Source of the DNA: Paraspadella gotoi
Lineage: Eukaryota; Animalia; Chaetognatha
Direction of reading: 5' to 3'
Length of the DNA: 64,000 bases
Assembly: GCA_051294375.1 (NCBI GenBank)
Contig: CM119264.1
Coordinates: 9,112,764 to 9,176,763, forward strand
This document shows positions 7,572 to 57,188 of the stretch, piece by piece. Under the pieces are notes generated by a model. It was not told the origin of the DNA. It was given only the letters and a program-made list of their open reading frames with translations, and did no database searches. Each line of letters opens with the position of its first letter. The first letter of the stretch is position 1. Made by a program: the position numbers and the translations under genes.

Positions 7572-18365
<10,794 letters not shown>

Positions 18366-19511
18366 TATTTTATAAAAACGTAAAAAAGGTTTTAGCTTAT
18401 TAAAAACGCAGTAAATTTCTGTTAATCTCAAAGAAAACTTTTTATTGCGGCTATTTAACCACTTTCTCGTATTCAAAAACTTTTCATTTGATAATTATAT
18501 ACAACCAATTGCTTGGTAGTTTCTGTGATAATAATGTGATATCTCTTTGATCGCTTAATAAATCCTCTAAAATTATAGTATCCGTATGAGTCGAAATGTT
18601 TTTGGGGGGAAAGAATTATAAAGATAATAGTATTTAGTGTATTGACTAATTTATTAGCTTTATAAACAGATGCGATTTTGGGAGAGCTTCATTTCTTGCC
18701 CCCTGATATTAAAAACGACAAAACTGTCAACCCCATTGCGAGAACATTAACACACACTCAGTCNNNNNNNNNNTCTCTCCGCTCCCTCGTAATGACGCCT
18801 TGGAACCAGTGAAGTAAAAGGGAAAGACAAGCAGCCAAACCTAAAATGAATTGACAGGGAAAAACAAGCGCCACAGTCCTAAAATGAAATTGAGAAGCGA
18901 GATTGCGTCAGAATGATCAGTCTTTGGTAGACAAATTTCATCATGTCTCAAAGTCATGACTTGAGATGTGATGATTAGGATAAAAAACCAAAATTGTCAA
19001 TCACGAATCACCAACGACAAAACCCTTAAACTGGGAAACGTATAATTTGTTCTGACATCCGGCCGGACCCCAAAAATGTTCAAGCGAATGAGAGAGACAA
19101 AGAGGCTCGGACCATAAGAGCCATGAGAATGGGAGACAAAAACGTCCGCGGCTTAAAAGCGCTCAACAGAAAAACGATCGGCCTCGAAAAAAAAAAAATT
19201 GTTATGACAGATTTATTAACAAAGCGACAACCATTCATATCCCGAAAACGGACGTTTTTACGGCGTTAGGGGAACCGAGTATAGGAATTTATTTTTGGGT
19301 GGAAGCATGCCACGGTCGTTTTATGCTTACTGGCCTCGTCATGCGGAACGTAGACCACGTATTACTTATCGTTCTTAATTTAAAGTTCCTAATTTTAAAC
19401 TGTCCCTAGACAACGATAACCGAACAAAGCGAATAAACAGATTGGATTTTAGGGTAAAGGGAAAATTGTGGCCGAGGGCGAATCCTAAATTCGTCTTCCG
19501 TATAGCTTGGA

Positions 19512-19726
19512 CAGCTCGTCCCATTGGCTTGGACAGCTAAGTACTCGTTCACCAACTGTGAGTTCCGGGTTCAGTCCCCTCACGGTCACGCTGGTTAAAG
19601 TGTGATGGTGTCGGCATAAACACGCCAGTGACATGGGGTGGTCACTGCAGGTCCAAAGCCCTTAGCGCCAGCTGTCGGGAGATGCCTCACACCCCAGGCA
19701 TCACACATGTCCCTCCGTTGCCATAG
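19512..19726 (+). mobile_element. tRNA-headed SINE-like element carrying a twister ribozyme, copy 1
   Basis: A-box-like tggcttggacagc, B-box gggttcagtccc, twister core, 3' hairpin gatgcct/aggcatc, end cgttgccatag; homologous to copies at 19762 and 41756. Confidence 0.7.
19590..19672 (+). ncRNA. Twister ribozyme, type-P5 permutation (predicted cleavage 19617^19618)
   Basis: P5 gctgg/ccagc; P2 GTGT/ACAC; L1 GA-TG-G...T^AA; GCC; P3 cagtgac/gtcactg; P4 agg/cct with L4 TC-CA-AAGC; T1 TG:CA. Confidence 0.85.
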
Positions 19727-19761
19727 CGGTTTATTCACACCTCCTCACATCCACCATCTTT

Positions 19762-19978
19762 AAGCTAATCCCATTGGCTCAACGTGGAACACACCATTCC
19801 AGGCGTTGTGTTCTATCCACAGTCCTAACGACTTCCCTCTGCGTTGGCAAAGCGAGACCGTCCTCGGGTAACCGCGCCAGTGAGAGGAGGCGTCACTGAG
19901 GGTCGGAAGCCCCGTAAAAGACAACAGTGAGATGCCACCTCCCAATGGGCATCACAGGCAACCCGGCTGTACCCATAG
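19762..19978 (+). mobile_element. tRNA-headed SINE-like twister element, copy 2 (head-to-tail with copy 1, 252-bp period)
   Basis: Head tcccattggctcaacgtgg, degenerate B box gtgttctatcc, twister core, hairpin gatgcc/ggcatc, end cccatag. Confidence 0.6.
19843..19925 (+). ncRNA. Twister ribozyme, type-P5 permutation (predicted cleavage 19869^19870)
   Basis: P5 gttg/caac; P2 GCG(A)/(C)CGC with one mismatch; L1 GA-CC-G...T^AA; P3 cagtga/tcactg; P4 ggg/ccc with L4 TC-GG-AAGC; T1 CC:GG. Confidence 0.75.
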
Positions 19979-40065: not shown

Positions 40066-40146
<81 letters not shown>

Positions 40147-40310
40147 GAGAGAGAAAGAAAGACCTTCATTCCCCGGGTCGAAAATAGGGCGAAGGAAAAC
40201 CGCGTTTCCTCCGTCGCGCCAACATAAAACCAAAACGCGAAACAAACTCTTGCCGTAGTGTTTCGAGTAAAAAAAATCGCCTGGAAACAGAGAAAAAAAA
40301 AGGAGAATGA

Positions 40311-40411
<101 letters not shown>

Positions 40412-41300
40412 TAAAAATGAATGAGGCGAAACTCTGGGAAAAGCCTGTAAATCACGACGAACTACTCACGTGTTCTCTTCCTCTTCCCGTTTTCCCGCTT
40501 CGCTACTAAACACTTATTTTACTTTCATAGCGACGATATTTTTCTCGTGAATCATTTCGCTTTTACCGCAAAAAAATGTCTTTTCTTTAGAAACTGTTCA
40601 GTTGAGTCATTTAATAATTGTTTCTCTATTTTCATTTTCATTCACGAGATTGATTAGGAAGAGCCTCTCCCGGATATTTGAATTTTTTTTAAGTTTCGTT
40701 ATCCATTTATGTTTGAAAACTTTTCTAACTTTCTATCATCCGTGAGCCATTGACCTCCGTCAAGCTATCCCCACGCCCCCCGCTCCTCGCCTCCAGTCTC
40801 TGTCCAGACCGACGAGGCAAATTTTTTCTCTTTTTTTTTTCTCTTCTCGTCGTCAAATGAGAAAGAATGGCTTCTCTGGGACCAGAGCAACTCTTATGCA
40901 GCATCCGGTTTTGATTGAAAAAAGCGAACGAAAAATAAGGCTTCGAGTGATAAGCCCCTTATAGGATTGCCTTCGCTTTAATTGTCGAAGATGGCTAAAG
41001 GTGGGAAAAAATAACTGAGTGGAAATGGGGAAATGGTTTTTAGAAATATACATTGATAAAGGTTTAATGTTTTGCCAATACAACGATTTTTATCGTTAAT
41101 TGTACATGTTTCGACTCTCTTAGTTCGAGTCTTCATCAGCTTTGAAAAAATATTAGCAAAATTGCTCTTCACATTGAGTTAGAGAGAGAGAGAGATTGAG
41201 GGAGAGTTTCCAACAAAGGGCTGAGTAAAGGACAGTGTCTAGATGAGAGGACAGGTGAAGGTAAGGACAGAGAAGAAGTTAATTTTTAATGGTGAAAACT

Positions 41301-41342
<42 letters not shown>

Positions 41343-41755
41343 AATAATTACATTTGACTTCACTTAGCAACGAAAAGAGAGAAAAAAAATACAATGTCTA
41401 GAAATATACAATAATTTCGTTGAACTTTAAAGTTTAATAGACGTAAAAAACTTGATGAAATCCCTTCTAATATCCGACTTACTTTTTGGACTAAGCTAAT
41501 ATTTTTTTTCTGGCAAAAAAAAAACCAGGTATTCTCGTCGTCTTAGTTCACTAAGAAATCGTTACCTTTGAGGCGAAGTCGCGGGCGGGCGCCGGGGGCG
41601 GCGGGGGTCGGAGGGGCTGTGAAAGGTCAAGAGTCGAATGAGTGGGAAGATACTTGAAGGAAAAAAAACAACTTATTCGTGGGGAGGAGGCAGCGTCGAT
41701 ATACCGCATAGAATCACCATTTGCCACATCAGGAATGCGACACCTAAATGATATA

Positions 41756-41971
41756 TTATGGCAACGGGAGGATAGCCTGTGATACCCGGGGCGCGGGGTA
41801 TCTCACCAACTGGCGTAGGGGCTGCGGACCCTCAGTGACCGCCTCCTGTCACTGGCATGTTTATACCGGCACCGTCACATTTAAGCCAGAACCGGGATAC
41901 CCAGGGATTGAACCCGGGACGCACGGATGGAATGAGATGATTTAGCCTGCTCAGCCATTGAGACGAGGCTG
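41756..41971 (-). mobile_element. tRNA-headed SINE-like twister element, copy 3
   Basis: Minus strand: A box tggctgagcagg, B box gggttcaatccc, twister core, hairpin gataccc/gggtatc, end cgttgccata. Confidence 0.75.
41810..41889 (-). ncRNA. Twister ribozyme, type-P5 permutation (predicted cleavage between 41863 and 41862)
   Basis: P5 ctggc/gccag; P2 ATGT/ACAT; L1 GA-CG-G...T^AA; P3 cagtgac/gtcactg; P4 AGGG/CCCT with L4 TC-CG-CAGC; T1 CG:CG. Confidence 0.85.
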
Positions 41972-42567
41972 AGGACGGACAGCAGTGAGGCAGCTTTAAG
42001 TCTTGCTGCCACAATATAAGTATATAAGTAAAGATATTCCCTTATGCTTTTTTAAGGATTTTTATGTGTCCTTTGTTATTGATTGTGAAAAAACTGCCGT
42101 TAAATTATACGTATCTTTCCCAGAAAGAAATTATTAAGTTGTGAGAAATTTATTACGAGGAGAAAATAAATCTTTTAAGGGTCAAAGACAGAAATATAAA
42201 ATGAATGAAGACGAACAGAAATTCAACTATTGAATATATCTGTAACGGAAAGCCGATGCTAGAAATAAAATTGAAGAGCAAAAGAACCTTGGTTTCATTT
42301 TCGTCAAGAGACTTGGCGCACCTGATGTCAGATGCGGCAGGTGCTGAGAGCTATTTCTTTTCGGAAATAGTGAATTCTTATCTTAAGGGGCGAGTGAGTT
42401 GAAGCTGAATATTCACAGGTTCGATAGGGTTGATGTGGCCAGGAGTCAAGAGGGAATTGTGGGCGAATGGGTTCGAAATCAGGTTTCCCTCGGGGGTGTG
42501 GATTCTCAGTTCAACATGATTTTAATTTTGTCTCCCCTAGAAAACGAAAAATCGGTTTTCAATAGAT

Positions 42568-42615
<48 letters not shown>

Positions 42616-42651
42616 TTCTCTTTTCTGTGACTTTCCTTTCCATCTCAATTC

Positions 42652-42728
<77 letters not shown>

Positions 42729-44064
42729 GTCTCTCTCTCTTTATCTCTCTCATGCTGTGAGCTGTTTTTCTGTATTTTGTGTCTCTCCTTCTTCATTTTT
42801 TTCTACCTACCGGTACTACTATAATTTAAAGGTAATTGATGATTTTTTCTGACCCTTTCTTTTTATTTTTTTCACTTTTTTCAATAATAATATTTCTAAC
42901 ATTCATTCGTTGTTCCTGTCTTGGCTTGCCATATAAGTTTTAAAAAAAATTACCAAATCGAAGAGCCCTGTCGTTATCAAGGGTATAAAGATAAATAAAA
43001 GATAAATTAAAAGCAAATTGAACACATATAAAATAAAATTACGTTCAATGTATATATAATTATATTTTTTGCTTAAGGAAACATTTATTTTCTACCTCAT
43101 GTTAGTAATTTAAAAATTTAAAAATTTAAAAATACTTAAAATTACTCAGACGAAAAATGAAAAAAGGCTTTTTCACCCTTTTCTCTTTTAGTTGAGAAAC
43201 TCCTCGACTTGAGTCCTTACCTCAAAATAAGACGCGTTATCAGTTCAGCTGAACTTTGACCTCGTTTTCCTTTCCTTTCTTCTCTCCCGAGTTAGCGAGA
43301 GGTTTTGCTCTCCTTTTTTATTCATTTTTATTCGAGAATTTTTTTCCTATATTTGCTTTTTTGTTATGTTTTTATATATATATATATAAATATTTTAAAT
43401 TAACGTATTTTAAATTAAACATTTAGCAGGAATGATTTCTGTGCATAAAAAATTTAGTGCAGTTATAAAAAAACCCAAAAAAACCACCAACTCATTTAGA
43501 AGAAAATTAAGCTCAGGGAATATTGATTAAACGTCTTAATATTATAATCCTAAAGGCTAAACGGAGGAACCAAATAAAAAGAAGATTAGCTTTGACGCTG
43601 ACGACGACTACTACTCTGACGACGACGACGACATTATTTTTGTCACCGAGAAAGTACGGCCGATCGCGACGTCGAGACGATGCCTTCGCAACACAGAAGC
43701 CGGCAAAAGAGAAAAATGTATGCCTGTTGCCTATGTATGCTTCCACAGTGACTACGGCGGACCCCGATGGCGACGCCGCTTAGGCTTATTAATTTTAAAA
43801 GCAAACGTCGGCTTTCTTCATTTTCCTAATCACCATTCACGATCTTTAATTTTGCATCCGCCGAAAAAAAAAAACGACCAAAAACCACAAAGAACACAAA
43901 CCAACAAAACGACCGCGAGCTATTTTCACCTGATTCTCACTCTGTGTCGCGTTATGATTAACGATAACTCTTAGTGTGAACTGATTAACCATACTTACTC
44001 TTGAGAATTCAAAAGCCGGAAAAGAATGTAAATGATGTAAATATGTTTTTTTTTGTCGGATGGA

Positions 44065-44109
<45 letters not shown>

Positions 44110-44950
44110 TCGAGTTTGGACGATGACGATTCACGATCTTCGGCGACGTCGTCTTCTTTCTCTCGGGAAATCAAAAGAAACAGCGGGGGAACGAAAATGG
44201 GGAAAGGAAGGAAAAAAGCAGAGAGTTAAAAGAAGAATATAAAAAAGAAAAGAAAAAAATATGAAAGATAAGGAAAAAATAACAATAACTAAAGTAGAAA
44301 CGAATTTGGATGGTAAAGGAATCTGGCTGGAGAGACGGAGAGACGGAGAGACGGATAGAGAGAAAGAAACGAGGCTACAATTGGATCCAATTCGTCTGTG
44401 AGAAACGAAAGCCGATTTCTTGGTCTTTCGGTTGATCGGGTAGTCTTTCTAACTATTAATAACTATTGCGAAGTAGGGCGAAAAACTGTATTTATATACT
44501 GTGTCACGAAAAGTGAGAGGCGCGAACACTTGGAATACAACCGAGGTCGAGCTATCAATTCAGATTTAACAATAAAAGACGACGACTGCTGACTTCACTG
44601 CTACTAAATCCTTTTTGACCTTTTTTAAGACAAAAGAACACTCTACTTTACGATGATTGCGATGAATGTGAACCTTGGGGATGATTTAAAGATGGAAAGA
44701 TGATGGAAGAAATAAAAAAAAGATGAGTCTGAGATGATGTAGCAAAAGGAAAGAGAGATAGAGACGATTATGACAGTAAAATTTGAAAGGAGAGAGATGA
44801 TTAGCAGAGAAAAGAGACAGAGAAAAAATGGAAAGAGGAAGTGGAAAAACAGAAGGAGGAAGCAAAAGGAGAGGAAATGGAAAGGAGGAGAAAAGCGAAC
44901 GGAAAGATTTCTCGCTGCAGAAATAAAACCGTGATTCCGGTTAACGATGG

Positions 44951-45027
<77 letters not shown>

Positions 45028-45195
45028 TAGAGAGAGAAGCTTTTATGCGATTCCGAAAACCAAGGAGACCCGAACTCAGGTCGTGTAAATGAGGGAGTAA
45101 ATTATTTTTCCACAGGTAAAAAAAAGGGAAGAAAAAACGATTAAACGAAGCAAATGGTAGTTTTAGATGCAAATGTGAGCAGTTTTGATATCTCT

Positions 45196-45250
<55 letters not shown>

Positions 45251-46227
45251 CTCTGCTCTCTCTCGTCTCTCTCTCTCTCAATATTTCACTAAAACACCGG
45301 CGATACGCTATGTAAAATATTCTTATTTTGACGTTGTTCGGTTTTCTTGTGAACAATCCAATCCGTAGCGCAGAAAACAACTGACAATTTCGAGGAAAAC
45401 AAACGTAAAATTTTTCTTTCACTGGAAACGATTTTTCGTTGAAACATCTTCGGTTTGGATTCCATCGTTTATTTTCTCCGACTCTCGCGACCTCCTCCCC
45501 TTGCTCATCCACCTCCCCCACTCCCCCTTCCCTCCCCCCTTATCCCGACACCCTAAAAAAACGATTGGGTGAGCCAAAGAAGGTCCGCCGGAGTCTTTGT
45601 TGCCGAAGCGTTGGCCATCCGAGGATTGATCGATTCGGATATATTTCGATCTCTCCGGCCAAACAGAACCCGTCCCTCTATTTATTCTGCCTTTCATTAG
45701 CTTCTCGCCGCCTTCATCCCTTCGTTCGTCTTTTTTTTCCCCTTTTTCTTTTATTGTTTGTTTGGACTTTTGTTTGTTTGTTTATCTTTTTTATTTGCTT
45801 TTCGTTTAAAGCCTTCCACGCGCTCATTTTGGCTGGGAGCGATTGGAATTGATCTTTCGTTTGTATGATTTTTGTAATTTACTCATTTGAATTTGTATCT
45901 TTACCCAAAGATCCCTTCATTAACTCGACGATTATTATAAATTTATCATTAATCCCTTTTCTCTATATAGATATAACGTTCTTTCGAGGAAAACGAAAAA
46001 TCATTAATCCTCGATCCAAATTCTCATTTATCGTTGAAGAGAAGCGCGTTAGTTTTTAAATGAGTTTTTTTAGGCGGGAGATGAAAGATTTATTGCGCAG
46101 AGTAAGAACTTAGTGAATTCGTGTTTATGACATCGGGATAAAGAAAATAAGAGATGAGGGAAGCAAATATACTCTTTTGTCATTCCTCATTTGAAATCCG
46201 AGCAAGGCTTTTGGCATTTGGCACACA

Positions 46228-48558: not shown

Positions 48559-48935
48559 AGAGAGAGAAGAGAGAGAGAGAGAGAAAGAGAGATGAGAGAG
48601 AGAAAGAAACATGGTGAACTGGTAACCATCGACAAACTCGCTCAAGAACGAAGGGAAAACCGAAAGGGCCGGAAAAAATGAAGAGAGAGAGAAATAGAGA
48701 GAGAGAGAGAGATGAGAGAGAGGAGAATTAAGAAAGAGCCTTCTATTTCCCCGGGTCGAAAAATTAGGGCGAGGAAAACGCGTTTCCTCGTCGCGCAACA
48801 TAAACAAAAAAACCGCGAAACAAAACTCTTTGCCGTATTTGTTGTTTGCGAGTAAACAAAAATCGCTGGAACACAGAGAAAAAAGAAAAAGGAGATGAAG
48901 ACTAGAGAGAGAGAGAGAGATGAGAAAGAGAGAGA

Positions 48936-48982
<47 letters not shown>

Positions 48983-51384
48983 AGAGAGAGAGTCAAAAAT
49001 GAAATGAGGGAACTCTGGGAAAAGCCTGTAATCAACGACGAACTAAGCTCACTGTGTTCTCTTCTCTTCCGTTTCCCGCTTCGCATACTCTAAACACTTA
49101 TTTTTACTTTTCCCATAGTCGACGATATTTTTCTGCGTGAAATCATTTCGCTTTTACCTAGAAAAAAAATGTCTTTTTTCTTTAAAAACTGTTTCAGTTG
49201 AGTCATTTCAATAATTGTTTCTATATTTTCATTTTCCATTCACGAGATTTTGATTAGGAAGAGCCTCTTGCCCGGATTATTTTGAAATTTTTTTTAAGTT
49301 TTCGTTTCCATTTATGTTTGAAAACTTTTCTAACTTTCTCATAATCCGTGAGCCATTGACCTCGTCAAGCTATCCCACGCCCCCCGCTCTCGCCTCCAGT
49401 CTCTGTCCAGACCGACGAGGCAAATTTTTTTCTCTTTTTTTTTTCTCTTCTCGTCGTCAAATGAGAAAGAATGGCTTCTCTGGGAGCCGAGCTAACTCTT
49501 ATGGCAAGCATCGGTTTTGATTGAAAAAGCGAACGAAAAATAAGGCTTCGAGTGATAAGCCCCTTATAAAGGATTGCCTTCGCTTTTAATTGTCGAAGAT
49601 GGCTAAAGGTGGGAAAAAATAACTGAGTGGAAATGGGGAAATGGTTTTTAAGAAAATATACATTGATAAAGGTTTTATGTTTTGCCAATACAACGATTTT
49701 TATTCGTTTAATTGTACATGTTTCGACTCTCTTAGTTCGAGTCTTCAATCAGCTTTGAAAAATATTAGCAAAATTGCTTTCACATTGAGTTAGATGATAG
49801 AGAAGAGTGATTGAGGGAGAAGTTTTCTCAAACAAAGGGCTGAGTAAAGGACAGTGGTCTAGATGAGAGACAGGTGAGGGTAATTTGGACAGAAGGGAAG
49901 AAAGTTAATTTTTAATCGTGAAAACCTGGAAAGATAGAGAGAGAAGAGAAAGAGAGAGAGAGAAGTAGAGAGAGAGAGAGAAATATTTACATTTGAACTT
50001 CTTACTTAGCAAATTCGAAAAGAAGAGAAAAAAAATCAATGTCTAAGAAATATACAATAATTTCGTTGAACTTAAGTTAATAGTACGTAAAAACTTGATG
50101 AAATCCCTTCTAATAATCACGAACTTACTTTTTGGACTAAGCTAATATTTTTTTTCTGGCAAAAAAAAACCGAGGTATTCTCGTCGTCTTAGTTTCACTA
50201 AGAAATCGTTTACCCTTTGAGGGAAAGTCGCGGGCGGGCGCCGGGAGGCGGCGGGGTCGGAGGGGCTGTGAAAGGTCCAAGAGTCGAATGAGTGGGAAGC
50301 ATACTTGAAGAAAAAAAACCAACTTATTCGTGGGGAAGAGGCAAGCGGTCTTATATACCCGTCTCATAGAATTCACACCATTTGCCACCCACCTCTAGGA
50401 AATGCGACACCTAAATGATATATTATGGCAACGGGGATAGCCTGTGATCCCGGGGCGCGGGGTATCTCAACCAACTGGCGTAGGGCTGCGGACCCTCCAG
50501 TGGACCGCCTCCTGTCACTGGCATGTTTATACCGGTGCACCGTTCCACATTTTATTAAGAGCCAGAAACCCGGGATCCCAGGGATTGAACCCGGGACGCA
50601 CGATGGAATGAGATGATTTAGGCCTGCTCAGCCATTGAGACGAAGGCTGAGGAAAGGAGGAGCAGTGAAGGCAGCTTTAAGTCTTGGCTGCCACAAATAT
50701 AAGTTATATAAGTAAAGATAATTCCCTTATGATTTTTTAAGGATTTTTATGTGTCCTTTGTTATTGATTGTGAAAAAACCTGCCGTTTAAATTATACGTA
50801 TCTTTTCCCAGAAAGAAATTAATTAAGCTTTGTGAGAAAATTTATTAACGAGGAGAAATACGAATCTTTTAAGGGCAAAAGAGCAGAAATATAAAATGAA
50901 TAAGACGAACAAAATTCAACATGAATATATCTGTAAACGGAAAGCCGATTTTGCTATGAAACTCAAAATTGAAAGAGCAAAAGAACTTGTTTTTCAATTT
51001 CTGTCAAGAGATCTTGGCGCACTCTGAATGTCAGAAATGCGGCAGGTGCTGAGAGCTATTTTCTTTTTCCGGAAACTAGTGAATTCCTTATCTTAAGGGG
51101 CGGTGAGTTGAATGCCTGAAATATTCACAGGTTCGATGAGGAGAGTTGAATTGTGGCCCAGGAGTCAAGAGGGAATTGTGGGCGAATGGGTTCGAAATCA
51201 GGTTTCCCTCGGGGGTTGTGGATTCTCAGTTCAACAGATTTTTAATTTTGTCTCCCTAGAAAAACGAAAAAATCGGTTTTCAAATAGATTCTCTCTCTGC
51301 TCTCTTTCTCTCTCTCTCTCTCTCTCATCCTCGTCACTCTCGTCTCTTTCTTTCTGTGGAACTTCCTTTCATCTCAATTCCATC

Positions 51385-51437
<53 letters not shown>

Positions 51438-53770
51438 ATCTCTCATTATCTCTCTCTTTCTCTCTCTATGCTGTGAGCTGTTTTTCTAAATCTGTATTTT
51501 GTGTCTCCTCGCTTCTTCATTTTTTTTCTAACTACCGGTACTAACTATAATTTAAGGTCAATTGATGATTTTTTCTGACCCTTCCTTTTTATTTTTTTCA
51601 CATTTTTTCAATAATAATATTCTAAACTTCATTCGTTGTTCCTGTCTTGCTTGCCATATAAGTTTTAAAAAAATTACAAACGAAGAGCCCTGTCGTATTC
51701 AAGGGTATAAAGATAATAAAAGATAAATTAAAAGGCAAAATTGAACAGCAATAAAATAAATTACGTTCAATGTATATTAATTAATATTTTTTGCTTAAGG
51801 AAACCATTTATTTTCTACCTCAATGTTAGTAATTTAAAAATTTAAAAAATTTAAAATCTTAAAAATTACTCAGAGAAAAATGAAAAAAGGCTTTTTCACG
51901 GCCTTTTCTCTTTAGTTGAGAAACTCCTCGACTTGAGTCCTTACCATCAAAATAAGACGCGTTTATCAGTTCAGCTGAACTTTGACGTCGTTTTCCTTTC
52001 CTTTCTTCTCTCCGCGAGTTAGCGAGAGGTTTTGCTCTCCTTTTTTTATCATTTTTAATTCGAGAATTTTTTTCCTTATATTTGCTTTTTTTGTTATGTT
52101 TTTATATATATATATATAAATATTTTAAATTAACGTATTTTTAAATTAAACATTTAGCAGGAATGATTTCTGTGCATAAGAAAATTTAGTGCAGTTATAA
52201 AAAACCCAAAAAAACCAACCAACTCATTTAGAGAAAATTAAGCTGCAGGGAATATTGGAAATTAAAACGTTTAAATATTATAATCCTAAAGGCTAAAACG
52301 GAGGAACGGCAAATAAAAAGAAGATTAGCTTGACGCTGGACCGACGACTATACTACTCTGACGACGGACGACGACATTATTTTTGTCACGCGAGAAAGTA
52401 ACGAGCCGATCGCGACGCGAGACGAATTGCCCTTCGCAACACCAGAAGCCGGCAAAAGAGAAAAATGTTATGCCTGTTTGCCCTATGTATGCTTCCACAG
52501 TGACCTACGGCGGACACCCGATGGCGACCGCCGCTTAGGCTTATAATTTTTAAAAGCAAACGTCGGCTTTCTTCATTTTCCTAATCACCATTCACGATCT
52601 TTAAATTTTGCATCCGCCGAAAAAAAAACGACCAAAAACCACAAAGAACACAAACCAACAAAAAGCGACGCGCGAGCTATTTTTTCACCTGATTCTTCAC
52701 TCTGTGTCGCGTTTATGATTAACGATAACTCTTAGTGTGAAGCTGATTAACATACTTACTCTTGAGAATTCAAAAGCCGGAAAAGAATGTTAAATGATGT
52801 TAAATATGTTTTTTTTGTTTGTGGATGGAGACGAACGAAGCACGACGACGAACGACGACGACTCGAGTTTGGAAGCGATGACGATTGCACGCATCTTCGG
52901 CGACGGGTCGTCTTTCTTTCCTACTCGGGAAATCAAAAGAAACAGCGGGGGAAACGAAAATGGGGAAAGGAAGGAAAAAAGCAAAGAAGGAGTTTTTTTT
53001 TTTTTTTTTAAGAAAGAAGAATATAAAAACAGAAAAAAGAAAAAAATAATGAAAGATAAAGGAAAAATAACAATAACTAAAGTAGAAAGCGAAATTTGGA
53101 TGGTAAAGGAATCTGGCTGGAGAGAACGGAGAGACGGAGAGCGGATAGAGAGAAGAAACGAGGCTACATTTGGAATCAATTGTCTGTGAGAAACGAAAGC
53201 CGATTTCTTGTCTTTCGGTTGATCGGGTAGTCTTTTCTAACTATTAATAACTATTGCGAAGTAGGCGAAAAACTGTATTTTAATTATACTGGTGTCCACG
53301 AAAAGTGAGAGCGCGAAATCTTGGAATACAACCGAGGTCGAGCTATCAATTTCAGAATTTAACAGAATAAAAGACGACGACTTGCTGACTTCACTGGCTA
53401 CTGAATCCTTTTTGACCTTTTTTAAGACAAAAGAACACTCTTAACTTTAACGAATGATTGCGATTGATGTGAACCTTGGGGATGAATTTAAAGATGGATA
53501 AAGATGTGGAAAGAAATAAAAAAAAGTATGAGTCCTGAGATGAATGTAGCCAAAAAGGAAAGAAGAGATAGAGACGATTATGACAGTAAAATTTGAAAAG
53601 GAGTAGAGATGAATTAGCAATGAGAGAGACAGAGAAAAAATGGAAAAAGAGGAAGTGGAAAAAACAGAAGGAGGAAGCAAAAGGAGAGGAAATGGAAAGG
53701 AGGAGAAAAGCGAACGGAAAGATTTCTCGCTGCAGAAATAAAACCGGTGATTCGCGGTTAAGCGATGGGC

Positions 53771-53846
<76 letters not shown>

Positions 53847-54057
53847 TGAGAGAAAGCTTTTATGCGATTCCGAAAACCAAGGAGACCCGAACTCAAGGTC
53901 CGTGTAAATGAGGAGTAAATTATTTTCCAGCACGTAAAAAAAAGGGAAGAAACAAACGAATTAAACGAAGCAAATGGTAGTTTTAGATGCAAATGTGAGC
54001 AGTTTTTGTATCTCTCTCTCCTCTCTCTCTCCATCTCTCTCTCTCTCTCTCTCTATT

Positions 54058-54096
<39 letters not shown>

Positions 54097-55037
54097 CTCT
54101 CTCTCTCAAATATTTCACTAAAACACACGGCGATACGCTATGTAAAATTATTCTCTTATTTTGACGTTGTTCGGTTTTCTTGTGAACAATCCAATCCGTA
54201 GCGCAGAAAACCAACTGACATTTTCGAGGAAAAACAAACGTAAAATTTTTTCGCTTTGCACTGGAAACGATTTTTCGTTGAAACATCTTCGGTTTGGATT
54301 CCATCGTTTATTTTTCTCACGACTCTCGCGACCGTCCTCCCTTGCTCATCCACCTCCCCACACTTCCCCTTCCCCCCCCCTTAGCCCCGACACCCTAAAA
54401 AAAATCGATTGGGTGAGCCAAAAGAAGGTCCGCCGGAAGTCTTTGTTGCCTGAAGCGTTGGCCATCCGAGGATTGATCGATTCGGATATATTTCGATCTC
54501 TCCGGCCAAACAGAACCCGTACCCTCTTATTGTATTCTGCCTTCAATTAGATTCTCGCGCTTCCATCCCTTCGTTCGTCTTTTTTTTCCCCCTTTTTTCT
54601 TTTATTGTTTTGTTTGGACTTTTGTTGTTTGTTTTATCTTTTTTTATTTGCTTTTCGTTTAAAGCCTTCCAGGCGAACAGCGCCATTTTGGCTGGAGCGA
54701 ATTGGAATTGATCTTTCGTTTGTATGATTTTTGTAATTTACTGCATTTTTGAATTTTGTATCTTACCCAAAGATCCCTTCATTAACTCGACGACTAATTA
54801 AATTTTATCATAATCCCGTTTTCTCTATATAGATTAACGTCTTCGAGGAAAACGAAAAATCATTAATCCTCGATCGCAAATGTCTCATTTATCGTTGAAG
54901 AGAAGCGCGGTTAGTTTTTTTAAATGAGTTTTTTTTAGGCGGTGAGATGAAAGATTTATTGCGCAGAGTAAGAACTTAGTGAATTCGTGTTTATGACATC
55001 GGGATAAAAAAATAAGAGATGAGGGAAGCAAATATAC
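46228..55037 (+). repeat. Indel-rich tandem duplicate of ~37440-46172 (probable assembly artefact)
   Basis: Colinear from aacgcagtacgata to gaagcaaatatact; ends near the 25-N gap at 55213-55237. Confidence 0.85.
50424..50650 (-). mobile_element. Indel-corrupted duplicate of SINE/twister copy 3
   Basis: Same sequence and flanks as 41756-41971 with scattered single-base insertions; lies inside the 8.8-kb duplication. Confidence 0.6.
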
Positions 55038-55090
55038 TGTGAAAGAATTTACGGCTCTTGTGTCACCAATGAGAGAGAGAGAGAGAAGAG

Positions 55091-57112: not shown

Positions 57113-57188
57113 TGCTCCGAAAACCCGGATTGAACCAGGGACCTTTAGATCTCAGTCTATCGCTCTTCCAAAACTGAGCTATTTCGGC
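57113..57188 (-). tRNA. tRNA-Phe (GAA type) with indels; sequencing errors or pseudogene
   Basis: Reverse complement GCCGAAATAGCTCAGTTTTGGAAGAGCGATAGACTGAGATCTAAAGGTCCCTGGTTCAATCCGGGTTTTCGGAGCA closely matches the canonical animal tRNA-Phe; the anticodon loop is one A short. Confidence 0.8.

What the first reader, a model, noticed from the sequence alone, without database searches (positions are those of the whole stretch)
19512..19978. tRNA-headed SINE-like element carrying an embedded type-P5 twister self-cleaving ribozyme
Seen in sequence: three diverged copies (19512-19726 +, 19762-19978 +, 41756-41971 -) share one order. That order is A box / B box / P5 arm / P2' / GA-NN-G / tiny P1 hairpin / TAA / P2 / GCC / P3 hairpin / P4 with loop TC-NN-(A/C)AGC / P5' / hairpin / (gttg)ccata. 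Paired positions covary: P2 is GTGT:ACAC, GCGA:CCGC and ATGT:ACAT; pseudoknot T1 is TG:CA, CC:GG and CG:CG. Established: these are the conserved twister core elements (U^A cleavage, GCC, L4 UC..AAGC, T1/T2 pseudoknots), and twisters are known from non-LTR retroelements such as RTE. Inference: this is a Pol III-driven non-autonomous retroelement that keeps a structurally intact ribozyme. That is paradoxical, because cleavage ~105 nt into the transcript would cut the promoter-bearing head from the body.
Basis: partly seen in the sequence, partly recalled or inferred. Interest (0 to 1): 0.9.

Follow-up and report, generated by a model that had tools for sequence, protein, structure and literature searches.

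The report
Twister ribozyme inside abundant SINE-like repeat
A very abundant ~250-base non-coding repeat in this animal-type genome has, as its best-conserved part, an RNA fold with the hallmarks of a twister self-cutting ribozyme, which is predicted to cut itself, likely only when two copies pair; I found no such combination in print.

Summary
Every defining twister element is present in type-P5 (circularly permuted) order.

Support for the twister reading:
- A literature-based descriptor finds only these copies in the window, and 0 fully paired matches in 300 shuffles.
- 88.6% of pair cells are paired, against 32-44% in slid controls.
- 8 pairs changed on both sides, including 2 of the 3 T1 pseudoknot pairs.
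- Family-majority letters from public runs repair 5 pairs that are broken in the window copies.
- The twister module is the best-conserved part between subfamilies.

Evidence against:
- No Rfam hit reaches significance (best 20.9 bits; gathering score 67.2).
- Free-energy folding gives no signal.
- Cleavage is untested.

The elements are very high-copy dispersed repeats with sharp ends (19477-19725, ~19763-19977, 41757-42013). They are 35-42 nt longer at the 5' end than reported. The "tRNA head / Pol III" claim is weak: the B box is exact in one subfamily only, the A box is at chance level, and there is no tRNA model hit.

The "tiny P1 hairpin" is an 8-nt self-complementary stretch in all three subfamilies.

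The closest precedent is the schistosome Sm-alpha SINE-like elements, which carry hammerheads. Verdict: new variant of a known kind.

The parts
19477..19725 (+). Copy c1, full element (249 nt)
   Evidence: The pile-up of contigs from 3 DNA runs and 1 possible RNA run starts at 19477. There are 47 loose ends there with an unconserved AT-rich flank. It stops at 19725, where the element ends ..GTTGCCATA.
19590..19672 (+). c1 twister-like core. P5a 19590-94; junction 19595-99; P2' 19600-03; GA 19604-05; T1a 19606-08; octamer 19609-16; U19617^A19618; P2 19620-23; GC (T2a) 19624-25; P3 19626-47; P4 19648-51/19660-63; L4 with T1b 19653-55 and T2b 19658-59; P5b 19668-72
   Evidence: The outer P4 pair is broken in this copy. 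The family-majority letter 19663 T>G restores it.
19681..19702 (+). c1 3' hairpin (GATGCC(T)/(A)GGCATC)
   Evidence: Present in the MFE fold. It covaries with the c3 hairpin (helix 9).
19763..19977 (+). Copy c2, element of a second subfamily. The 5' end is approximate; the 3' end at 19977 is sharp.
   Evidence: pile-up over 19763/19786-19977. Loose ends behind 19977 are unconserved.
19839..19927 (+). c2 twister-like core. P5a 19839-41 + 19844-48; P2' 19852-55; GA 19856-57; T1a 19858-60; octamer 19861-68; U19869^A19870; P2 19872-75; GC 19876-77; P3 19878-98; P4 19899-902/19911-14; T1b 19904-06; T2b 19909-10; P5b 19920-27
   Evidence: P2 has one A.C mismatch. The majority letters 19884 G>C, 19921 A>C and 19865 C>A restore a P3 pair, a P5 pair and the octamer's central pair.
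19931..19953 (+). c2 3' hairpin (GATGCC../..GGGCATC)
   Evidence: The majority letter 19937 A>C adds a 7th pair. MAFFT misaligned this helix in A3, so undercounts it.
41757..42013 (-). Copy c3, full element (257 nt); a near-consensus member of a young, abundant subfamily
   Evidence: pile-up 41757-42013 with loose ends at 41756/57 and 42013/14. 864 of 1589 X1 contigs are >=99% alike. Only 1 place varies at >=10%.
41810..41889 (-). c3 twister-like core. P5a 41889-85; P2' 41880-77; GA 41876-75; T1a 41874-72; octamer 41871-64; U41863^A41862; P2 41860-57; GC 41856-55; P3 41854-33; P4 41832-29/41820-17; T1b 41827-25; T2b 41822-21; P5b 41814-10
   Evidence: All helices are fully paired. The homodimer MFE reproduces 22 of 22 nested pairs.
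41781..41802 (-). c3 3' hairpin (GATACCC/GGGTATC)
41904..41914 (-). B-box-like motif GGTTCAATCCC, with a foldable T-arm
   Evidence: Exact match to the recalled consensus GGTTCRANNCC. There are 4 hits in the window against 0.74 expected.
50424..50695 (-). Copy c4, a duplicate of c3 inside a noisy duplicated block
   Evidence: It carries 1-nt indels in the core, and the descriptor fails on P2 and T1.

Best explanation
These are copies of a very high-copy, ~250-nt non-coding interspersed repeat whose best-conserved module has the sequence and pairing pattern of a circularly permuted (type-P5) twister ribozyme. It is predicted to self-cleave at a U^A site, and likely does so efficiently only when two element RNAs pair.

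SHOWN.
- The repeat family, its sharp ends and its three subfamilies.
- The complete set of twister modules in permuted order: P5a - AAA - P2' - GA - T1a - octamer - U^AA - P2 - GC - P3 - P4/L4 - P5b.
- Compensatory changes in P2, T1, P4 and the 3' hairpin.
- The self-complementarity of the octamer that stands where P1 should be.

INFERRED.
- The element is a retroposon (SINE-like), copied by the reverse transcriptase of an autonomous partner that recognises the 3' hairpin and the ..GTTGCCATA end.
- A lone transcript can form only a 2-bp P1 and would cleave poorly. It would therefore stay whole, head included, as a template.
- Two transcripts (or two tandem copies of one subfamily) would pair through the octamer into a domain-swapped dimer with two complete ribozymes, and would cut. 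Each cut would give a 5' piece ending in a 2',3'-cyclic phosphate and a 3' piece with a 5'-OH.
- The selective value of the fold for the element is inferred only from its conservation. Possibilities are processing of multimeric or read-through transcripts, or imitation of a partner's ribozyme-bearing end.
For: (1) Module-by-module match. I compared the copies with the twister definition in PMC5408937 (passages), with the layout of accepted S. mansoni twisters in Liu 2021 Table 1, and with the Rfam consensus line. Shared features are: UAA; a 4-bp P2; GC + C; P3; a 3-bp P4 extended by G-C; L4 GU-NNN-N-A-GC-C; an AAA junction; and GA + a 3-nt T1 strand.
(2) Descriptor. 3 fully paired matches in the window; 0 in 300 shuffles.
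(3) Pair counts on A3. 88.6% of 105 cells are paired, against 31.7-43.6% with slid partners. 8 pairs changed on both sides, against 0-1 slid and 2/500 shuffles. T1 is paired in 9/9 cells with 2 compensatory pairs. P2 has 2 compensatory pairs.
(4) Of the 12 unpaired cells, 2 (19663, 19884) are repaired by the majority letter of thousands of paralogous contigs. Majority letters at 19921, 19937 and 19865 restore three further pairs that A3 does not register because c2 is misaligned there or because the pair is the octamer's centre.
(5) The twister module is the most conserved part between subfamilies. c1-c3: 81%, against 59% for the head and 67% for the tail. c1-c2: 64 / 50 / 54. c2-c3: 71 / 46 / 60.
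(6) High-copy dispersed family with defined ends. 5791, 6307 and 2941 DNA contigs were laid on c1/c2, and 1589, 1788 and 707 on c3. Flanks are at single-copy depth.
(7) Octamer. c1 and c3 form 4/4 self-pairs. c2 forms 3/4, or 4/4 with the ~99% majority letter. The background is 1.84% of window 8-mers. The central pair, which no hairpin can form, is C-G in c1/c3 and U-A in the c2 family.
(8) The c3 homodimer MFE holds 22/22 nested twister pairs, against 11/22 in the monomer MFE. For c1 the figures are 14/21 and 5/21.
(9) Precedent. PLE hammerheads have a palindromic short stem-III loop and cleave as dimers (PMC6765202 passage). Axolotl retrozyme hammerheads need dimers (PMC7229834 passages).
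Against: - No significant Rfam hit. There is nothing at gathering threshold on the whole window. The best is 20.9 bits, E 0.081 on 601 nt, to the P1-type model, against a gathering score of 67.2.
- Free-energy folding gives no signal. z-scores run from -1.6 to +0.4. The monomer twister structure lies 6.5-9 kcal/mol above the MFE.
- The homodimer energy gain is not unusual: 75/200, 182/200 and 23/200 shuffles do as well.
- c2 has an A.C mismatch in P2 and a mismatched outer P4 pair at family level.
- c3 has C where L4 has a conserved A.
- Only three independent sequences underlie the covariation. No further copies could be fetched.
- No pile of copies starting at the cleavage site was listed, but those lists were truncated.
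- No RNA evidence, and cleavage is untested.
- A 2-bp P1 is known to suffice in env22, so a monomer may be active.
- The retroposon nature is inferred. No target-site duplications could be shown, and no partner element lies in the window: 0 RT/EN domains in 85 ORFs.
Confidence: 0.5

Rival explanations
1. One reading: a monomeric, constitutively active type-P5 twister. P1 is a 2-bp hairpin with a tetraloop. Every transcript cuts itself in cis about 125-150 nt from its 5' end, separating the head from the body. Only the uncleaved fraction, or religated RNA, propagates.
For: All core elements are present. In the env22 crystal structures P1 has only two Watson-Crick pairs (PMC5408937 passage). Weak cleavage occurs even without P1 (Liu 2021 section 17). 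P5, P2 and T1 would hold the two halves together after the cut.
Against: Thousands of full-length copies carry the head upstream of the ribozyme. The copied RNA was therefore uncut. The central octamer pair covaries (C-G to U-A), although a hairpin cannot use it. The monomer MFE lacks P2 and P4.
Confidence: 0.22
2. A structural fossil or mimic. The module was taken from the ribozyme-bearing end of an autonomous partner, either an RTE-clade LINE 5' end or a Naiad-type Penelope-like element tail. It is kept because the partner's protein binds that fold. Cleavage itself plays no part in the element's life cycle.
For: RTE 5'-UTR pieces repeatedly become SINE bodies (Kojima 2018, PMC5786205, passages). 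Twisters sit at RTE 5' ends. Unchecked notes of this scan report P5-type twister-like folds in Naiad tails. The flanks are AT/TA-rich, and Naiads prefer (TA)n (Craig 2021 passage).
Against: The published RTE twisters are P1-type and sit at the very 5' end, not permuted. Exact 8-11-mers of this core were not found in the supplements of Kojima 2018 or Craig 2021; line breaks could hide some. The catalytic-site letters (U^A, GA, the invariant G:C of T1) are kept in all three subfamilies, which a mere binding site would not need.
Confidence: 0.18
3. Chance resemblance. The conserved body is a structured SINE domain of another function that happens to match a twister descriptor.
For: There is no significant covariance-model hit. 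There are only three independent sequences. Over a scan of very many windows, one or two chance descriptor matches are expected. This is my extrapolation from 2 sequence-only matches in 300 shuffles.
Against: Compensatory changes fall exactly on twister helices, and on a 3-bp pseudoknot that no nested fold requires. Majority letters repair broken pairs. Fixed letters and spacings match in three versions that are 19-36% diverged within this module.
Confidence: 0.1

Closest known systems
Sm-alpha / Sj-alpha SINE-like retroposons of schistosomes with an embedded hammerhead ribozyme. I saw these described in the review PMC6765202. The primary papers (Ferbeyre 1998, Laha 2000) I saw only as references.
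   Same: A short non-coding, high-copy retroposon-like repeat with Pol III-type promoter motifs and a self-cleaving ribozyme inside the unit. Cleavage separates promoter from body. Tandem copies are invoked to solve this.
   Different: The ribozyme class is twister, not hammerhead. Copies here are mostly dispersed monomers with sharp ends. Promoter evidence is weak.
Twister ribozyme, type-P5 permutation (class of Roth et al. 2014, not held, recalled; defined in PMC5408937; Rfam twister clan CL00120)
   Same: All essential stems and both pseudoknots, the U^A site, the conserved L1/L2/L4 letters, and an open P5.
   Different: It scores far below Rfam's gathering threshold. P1 is an 8-nt palindrome without a loop. 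The T1 letters differ from the CCC:GGG consensus but are compensated. c3 has C for a conserved L4 A.
T-variant twisters at the 5' end of Perere-3, and 'truncated' twisters of the RTE superfamily (Liu 2021, PMC8501958; de la Pena 2020, PMC7761336)
   Same: A twister as an integral part of a non-LTR retroelement.
   Different: Those are P1-type and sit at the extreme 5' end. They cut the element free of upstream transcript, and the target-site duplication supplies the P1 strand. Here the ribozyme is internal, permuted, and in a non-coding element.
Dimer-dependent minimal hammerheads of Penelope-like elements and amphibian retrozymes (PMC6765202; PMC7229834)
   Same: A helix next to the cleavage site is replaced by a very short palindromic stretch, so the full fold needs two copies. 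The host is a retroelement.
   Different: A different ribozyme class. Those repeats are tandem and give circular RNAs. No sign of regular tandem arrays or circles was seen here.
SINEs whose bodies derive from LINE 5' parts (bipartite RTE/Vingi derivatives; Kojima 2018, PMC5786205)
   Same: The layout head + middle body + 3' tail. That paper raises the idea that a ribozyme in the body would truncate the SINE.
   Different: No sequence match to the domains shown there. Kojima argues that SINEs avoid the ribozyme, whereas this family keeps one.

Membership tests
Twister ribozyme class | U^A cleavage site in L1 (UAA), directly 5' of P2 | tested here: met
   TAA is present in 3 of 3 independent copies, directly before a 4-nt P2 strand.
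Twister ribozyme class | P2 of exactly four Watson-Crick pairs, followed on the 3' strand by GA | tested here: met
   c1 4/4, c3 4/4, c2 3/4 (A.C). There are 2 compensatory pairs. GA is invariant.
Twister ribozyme class | Pseudoknot T1: three Watson-Crick pairs between L4 and the 3' strand of L1 | tested here: met
   9 of 9 cells are paired. 2 of 3 pairs changed on both sides. The third is an invariant G:C.
Twister ribozyme class | Pseudoknot T2: the conserved GC of L2 with two bulged nucleotides (GC) of L4 | tested here: met
   GC/GC is invariant in 3 of 3 copies. It never varies, so it gives no covariation evidence.
Twister ribozyme class | P4 of three pairs, extended by an invariant G-C, with L4 reading GU-NNN-A-A-GC-C | tested here: met
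   10 of 12 cells are paired. The c1 outer pair is restored by the majority letter. L4 matches, except that c3 has C at the first conserved A.
Twister ribozyme class | P1 stem next to the cleavage site | tested here: inconclusive
   Only 2 pairs are possible within one molecule. An 8-bp duplex is possible between two molecules.
Twister ribozyme class | Match to a curated covariance model at its gathering score (Rfam RF03160, or the other models of clan CL00120) | tested here: not met
   There are 0 hits at gathering threshold. Scores of 13.6-20.9 bits compare with a gathering score of 67.2. c3 got no twister hit in the 331-nt search. The P5-type model's own score was not shown, because only the best match of a clan is kept.
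Twister ribozyme class | Site-specific, Mg2+-dependent self-cleavage | not testable with these tools
   This needs in vitro transcription and mapping of the cut.
tRNA-derived SINE (SINE2) | Head homologous to a tRNA, with A and B boxes placed about +10 and +50 from the 5' end | tested here: not met
   No tRNA hit on any copy. The B box is exact in c3/c4 only. The A-like box needs 2 mismatches, which is chance level. In c3 it lies about 57 nt from the element's 5' end. The box consensus patterns are recalled, not taken from a call.
SINE / non-autonomous retroposon in general | Short, non-coding, high-copy, dispersed, with defined termini | tested here: met
   249-257 nt. Thousands of contigs are laid, with unconserved flanks on both sides. 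No ORF domain was found.
SINE / non-autonomous retroposon in general | Target-site duplications, and a 3' end shared with an autonomous LINE or PLE partner | tested here: inconclusive
   The flanks of c3 share only TATAT, which is low-complexity. No partner element lies in the window. No genome is held.
Metazoan non-LTR retrozymes | Tandem arrays of 170-400-bp units, each with a ribozyme, expressed as circular RNAs | tested here: not met
   Most copies have unique flanks on both sides. The one adjacent pair, c1-c2, belongs to two subfamilies whose octamers are not complementary to each other. Circular RNA could not be tested.
Naiad-type Penelope-like element tail (lead from earlier notes of this scan) | Sequence continuity with a Naiad ORF or consensus tail | tested here: not met
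   There is no RT or GIY-YIG domain in the window. Exact 9-11-mers of the core are absent from non-coding parts of the Naiad consensus file of Craig 2021. What is shared is only the architecture: a P5-type fold, a palindromic P1, and TA-rich targets.

The most novel reading that the evidence does not exclude
This family is the non-autonomous, SINE-like partner of twister-bearing Penelope-like (Naiad-type) elements. It is a 'twister retrozyme' lineage whose ribozyme is switched on only by RNA dimerisation through a subfamily-specific palindrome. Lone transcripts survive to be copied, while paired or tandem transcripts are processed. If so, twister joins hammerhead as a second ribozyme class that retroelements run in a dimer-gated mode, and Naiads would not lack a ribozyme after all.
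Probability: 0.22. Interest if true: 0.85.

Novelty: new variant of a known kind. Interest (0 to 1): 0.68.

Why it matters
Twister is abundant in animal genomes, but only one biological role has been shown: 5' processing of an RTE-clade LINE in schistosomes.

A short non-coding element that has kept an intact, permuted twister through the divergence of three subfamilies, at very high copy number, would give the ribozyme a second retroelement context. It would be the first for twister that parallels the Sm-alpha hammerhead SINEs.

The palindromic P1 makes a concrete, testable prediction of concentration- or tandem-dependent cleavage. That prediction would explain how a ribozyme can sit downstream of an element's own head without destroying it.

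The finding also shows that Rfam's twister models miss this variant, so twister counts in invertebrate genomes are likely underestimates.

Tried and rejected
- Whole-genome search: no genome is held for this window.
- More copies elsewhere: the core pattern gave 0 hits in metagenome, prokaryote-genome and viral contigs. My own covariance model R1, run with filters off, found only the 4 known copies in the window; the next best hit was E 0.36.
- Earlier notes by place and by sequence: nothing.
- RNA evidence: no listed holder is on record as RNA. X9 is only guessed to be RNA and is kept as contigs, which cannot show ends. Nothing can be said on expression.
- P5-type Rfam model: I trimmed the intervals so that the P1-type model could not use the downstream hairpin. 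The result was still only local P3-P4 hits to the P1-type model. One lower-scoring clan match was hidden.
- Thermodynamic support: none, for either monomer or dimer.
- Type-P1 reading proposed by Infernal, with P1 = GGCA/UGCC formed with the 3' hairpin arm: rejected as the main fold. Its P2 and T1 partners are absent downstream (read).
- MITE (DNA transposon): c3 has a 9-bp terminal complementarity, but c1 has none. All motifs are strand-specific.
- Copy c4 as evidence of neutral decay: rejected. Its differences from c3 are mostly 1-nt, homopolymer-type indels, like the rest of the duplicated block.
- Homology to Kojima's RTE-5' SINE domains and to Naiad consensus sequences: not found by exact substrings. 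Sequences wrapped over line ends could be missed.
- My first B-box pattern was mis-recalled and found nothing. I corrected it.
- Roth et al. 2014 could not be read.
Full report
WHAT IS THERE.

A profile built from them finds exactly one more copy in the window, at about 50424-50695 on the minus strand. A structure-aware model run without filters also finds these four and nothing else; the next hit has E 0.36.

The fourth copy lies in a duplicated block (40105-46173 against 48682-55038). The two halves of the block differ by 88 mismatches but 454 gap events. Of those, 397 are single bases and 281 extend a homopolymer. This looks like assembly noise. I treat c4 as a poor duplicate of c3, not as an independent or decayed copy.

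The window is non-coding around the copies. Of the 85 stop-to-stop ORFs of 90 aa or more that passed a complexity filter, none holds a reverse transcriptase, endonuclease or transposase. The one solid domain is a LIM exon near 9.3 kb. No whole genome is held.

A HIGH-COPY FAMILY WITH SHARP ENDS.

I laid contigs of three DNA runs and one possible RNA run of the same (coded) organism on the loci at 80% likeness. This gave 5791, 6307, 2941 and 470 contigs on c1/c2, and 1589, 1788, 707 and 151 on c3. The unique flanks stay at single-copy depth: 12.3 in X1, against tens to hundreds of thousands of summed word depth over the repeats.

Loose ends mark the boundaries:
- c1 runs 19477-19725.
- c2 runs from about 19763 to 19977.
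- c3 runs 41757-42013.

All three end in ..CCATA. Flanks are AT-rich and unconserved, with agreement 0.41-0.53.

c3 is a near-consensus copy of a young subfamily. 864 of the 1589 X1 contigs are at least 99% alike, and one position alone varies at 10% or more.

IS IT A TWISTER?

I took the definition from the review PMC5408937 (passages):
- P1, P2 and P4 are essential; P3 and P5 are optional.
- The type is named after the open stem.
- P2 has four pairs, followed by a sheared A-G.
- P4 has three pairs, extended by an invariant G-C.
- T1 is three Watson-Crick pairs between L4 and L1.
- T2 joins the conserved GC of L2 to two bulged L4 nucleotides.
- The cleavage site is U^A.

Table 1 of Liu et al. 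2021 lays out accepted twisters module by module. The copies match that layout one-to-one in permuted order: P5a, an A-rich junction, P2', GA, the three T1 nucleotides, an octamer, U^AA, P2, GC, P3 (7 bp), P4 with L4 GU-NNN-N-A-GC-C, and P5b. A separate hairpin and the 3' end follow.

A descriptor holding only the literature constants and the pairing rules matches the three good copies in the window. In 300 dinucleotide shuffles it gives no paired match and only two sequence-only matches in total.

Counting pairs on alignment A3, with both pseudoknots written in, gives the following:
- 88.6% of 105 cells are paired, against 31.7-43.6% when partners are slid by 1-3 columns.
- Eight pairs changed on both sides, against 0-1 in the slid controls and 2 of 500 shuffles.
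- T1 is paired in 9 of 9 cells, with two compensatory pairs.
- P2 has two compensatory pairs, and P4 and P1 one each.
- P3 and T2 never vary.

Of the 12 unpaired cells:
- Seven come from MAFFT shifting c2 in P5 and in the 3' hairpin.
- Two are repaired by the majority letter of the paralogues. 19663 T>G restores the outer P4 pair of c1, and 19884 G>C restores a P3 pair of c2.
- Three persist at family level: the c2 A.C mismatch in P2, the c2 outer P4 pair, and the c3 outer P5 pair.

Majority letters also restore a P5 pair (19921 A>C), a hairpin pair (19937 A>C) and the octamer's central pair (19865 C>A).

Between subfamilies the twister module is the best-conserved part:
- c1-c3: 81%, against 59% for the head and 67% for the tail.
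- c1-c2: 64 / 50 / 54.
- c2-c3: 71 / 46 / 60.

EVIDENCE AGAINST.

Rfam finds no twister at gathering threshold. On short intervals the P1-type model gives 20.9 bits (c2), 16.3 bits (c1) and, after trimming, 15.4 and 13.6 bits on the P3-P4 part only. The gathering score is 67.2. c3 got no twister hit in its 331-nt search.

Covariance models cannot score pseudoknots, and the permuted model's own score was hidden by clan competition. I therefore weigh this as 'not recognised by Rfam' rather than 'not a twister'.

Free-energy folding is also silent. z-scores run from -1.6 to +0.4. The monomer MFE keeps P5, P3 and the 3' hairpin but not P2 or P4. The nested twister structure lies 6.5-9 kcal/mol above the MFE.

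c2 keeps an A.C mismatch in P2, and c3 has C at a conserved L4 adenine.

Only three independent sequences exist here. The core pattern has no hit in metagenome, prokaryote or viral contigs.

THE HEAD.

The B-box consensus (recalled) matches exactly in c3 and c4 only, among 4 hits where 0.74 are expected. c1 has one mismatch and c2 has no match.

The A-box consensus (recalled) finds no copy at one mismatch or fewer. At two mismatches it is at chance level: 167 hits against 131 expected.

Infernal and ARAGORN find no tRNA in any copy.

In c3 the A-to-B spacing is 43 nt and a T-arm can be drawn. However, the A-like box lies about 57 nt from the element's 5' end, too far for a classical internal Pol III promoter to start at that end. 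A covarying 5'-terminal hairpin precedes it in c1 and c3. 'tRNA-headed, Pol III-driven' is therefore possible but not shown.

P1 IS A PALINDROME.

Unchecked notes of this scan on other genomes describe P5-type twister-like folds in the tails of Naiad-type Penelope-like elements, with P1 replaced by self-complementary stretches. I tested that idea here.

The octamer between T1a and the U^A site forms 4 of 4 self-pairs in c1 and in c3. In c2 it forms 3 of 4, or 4 of 4 with the letter carried by about 99% of the paralogue depth at 19865. Only 1.84% of window 8-mers do so.

The central pair joins two neighbouring nucleotides, so no hairpin can form it. It is C-G in c1/c3 and U-A in the c2 family.

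The c3 homodimer MFE contains 22 of 22 nested twister pairs in domain-swapped form. The monomer MFE contains 11 of 22. For c1 the figures are 14 of 21 and 5 of 21.

The energy gain on dimerisation is not unusual: 75, 182 and 23 of 200 shuffles do as well. The support is therefore architectural, not energetic.

The precedent is exact in kind. Hammerheads of Penelope-like elements have a palindromic, very short stem-III loop and cleave as dimers (PMC6765202). Axolotl retrozyme hammerheads need dimers (PMC7229834).

HOW IT LIKELY WORKS.

Shown: the family, its ends, the fold's elements, their covariation, and the palindrome.

Inferred:
- The element is a non-autonomous retroposon copied through its 3' hairpin and end.
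- A lone RNA has at most a 2-bp P1 and is a poor ribozyme, so it stays whole and new copies keep the head.
- Two RNAs of one subfamily, or two tandem copies, would pair through the octamer, complete two ribozymes and cut at U^A.

The same paradox is already described for the hammerhead-bearing Sm-alpha SINE-like elements of schistosomes (PMC6765202).

Whether the fold was taken from a partner element is open. Candidates are an RTE 5' twister or a Naiad tail. I found no sequence match to Kojima's RTE-derived SINE domains, nor to the Naiad consensus file, by exact substrings. There is no partner in the window.

The AT/TA-rich flanks agree with the (TA)n preference reported for Naiads, but also with many other elements.

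NOVELTY.

These full-text searches returned no paper on a twister in a SINE or SINE-like element, a dimer-dependent twister, or a twister in Naiads:
- 'twister ribozyme' + SINE.
- twister + self-cleaving + retrotransposon + SINE.
- twister ribozyme / RTE / non-autonomous.
- twister + Naiad + ribozyme, 0 papers.
- twister ribozyme / dimer / palindromic / retrozyme.

Subscription papers, Roth et al. 2014 (not held) and bioRxiv supplements were not searched.

I file this as a new variant of a known kind: a twister in the role that hammerheads hold in Sm-alpha elements, with a PLE-hammerhead-like dimer device. My confidence is about 0.75 that it is a real, selected twister-class fold, about 0.45-0.5 that it is dimer-gated, and about 0.25 that the head is tRNA-derived.

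Noticed in passing
window 19613-19616 / 19683-19686 / 19697-19700; 41867-41864 / 41799-41796 / 41786-41783 (minus strand): Three-way complementarity. The four nucleotides just 5' of the U^A site (GGCA in c1, GGTA in c3) equal the start of the 3' arm of the downstream hairpin, so they can pair with that hairpin's 5' arm. The C/T, G/A and C/T letters change together between c1 and c3. Infernal used this pairing as 'P1'. It could be an alternative long-range P1, or a switch.
   Followed up: partly
window 40105-46173 and 48682-55038: A ~6-kb block is present twice, 8.6 kb apart. Identity is 90.4%, but the differences are 454 gap events (397 of 1 nt, 281 extending a homopolymer) against 88 mismatches. 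This is probably a poorly polished or falsely duplicated stretch of the assembly.
   Followed up: partly
window 41757-41765 and 42005-42013 (minus strand): The 5' end of c3 (UGUGGCAGC) pairs with its 3' end (GUUGCCAUA) over 9 bp in the MFE fold. c1 has no such panhandle.
   Followed up: no
window 57116-57187 (-): A tRNA gene was found by Rfam (35.6 bits; gathering score 29) but not by ARAGORN.
   Followed up: no
window 9231-9554 (-): An ORF piece carries a LIM domain (Pfam PF00412, E 2.5e-10), likely an exon of a host gene. An exact (GA)n microsatellite lies inside the same ORF frame region.
   Followed up: no
window 12538-12957: There are arrays of 18-bp repeats (up to 9.7 copies, 90% matches) inside a 250-aa open frame on the minus strand. 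Read on that strand, the units would give Gly-X-Y-like triplets. A collagen-like exon is my guess; it is unchecked.
   Followed up: no
window 19726-19762: c1 and c2 lie head-to-tail only 37 nt apart, yet they belong to different subfamilies, and their octamers are not complementary to each other. This could be insertion next to an existing copy, as Penelope-like elements do, or chance.
   Followed up: partly
3' flanks of all three subfamilies (behind 19725, behind 19977, before 41757): The consensus of the paralogues' 3' flanks shows a run of 7-8 T (on the element strand) starting about 6-9 nt after ..CCATA, at low agreement (0.41-0.48). This could be a Pol III terminator carried along, a T-rich tail, or target preference.
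   Followed up: no
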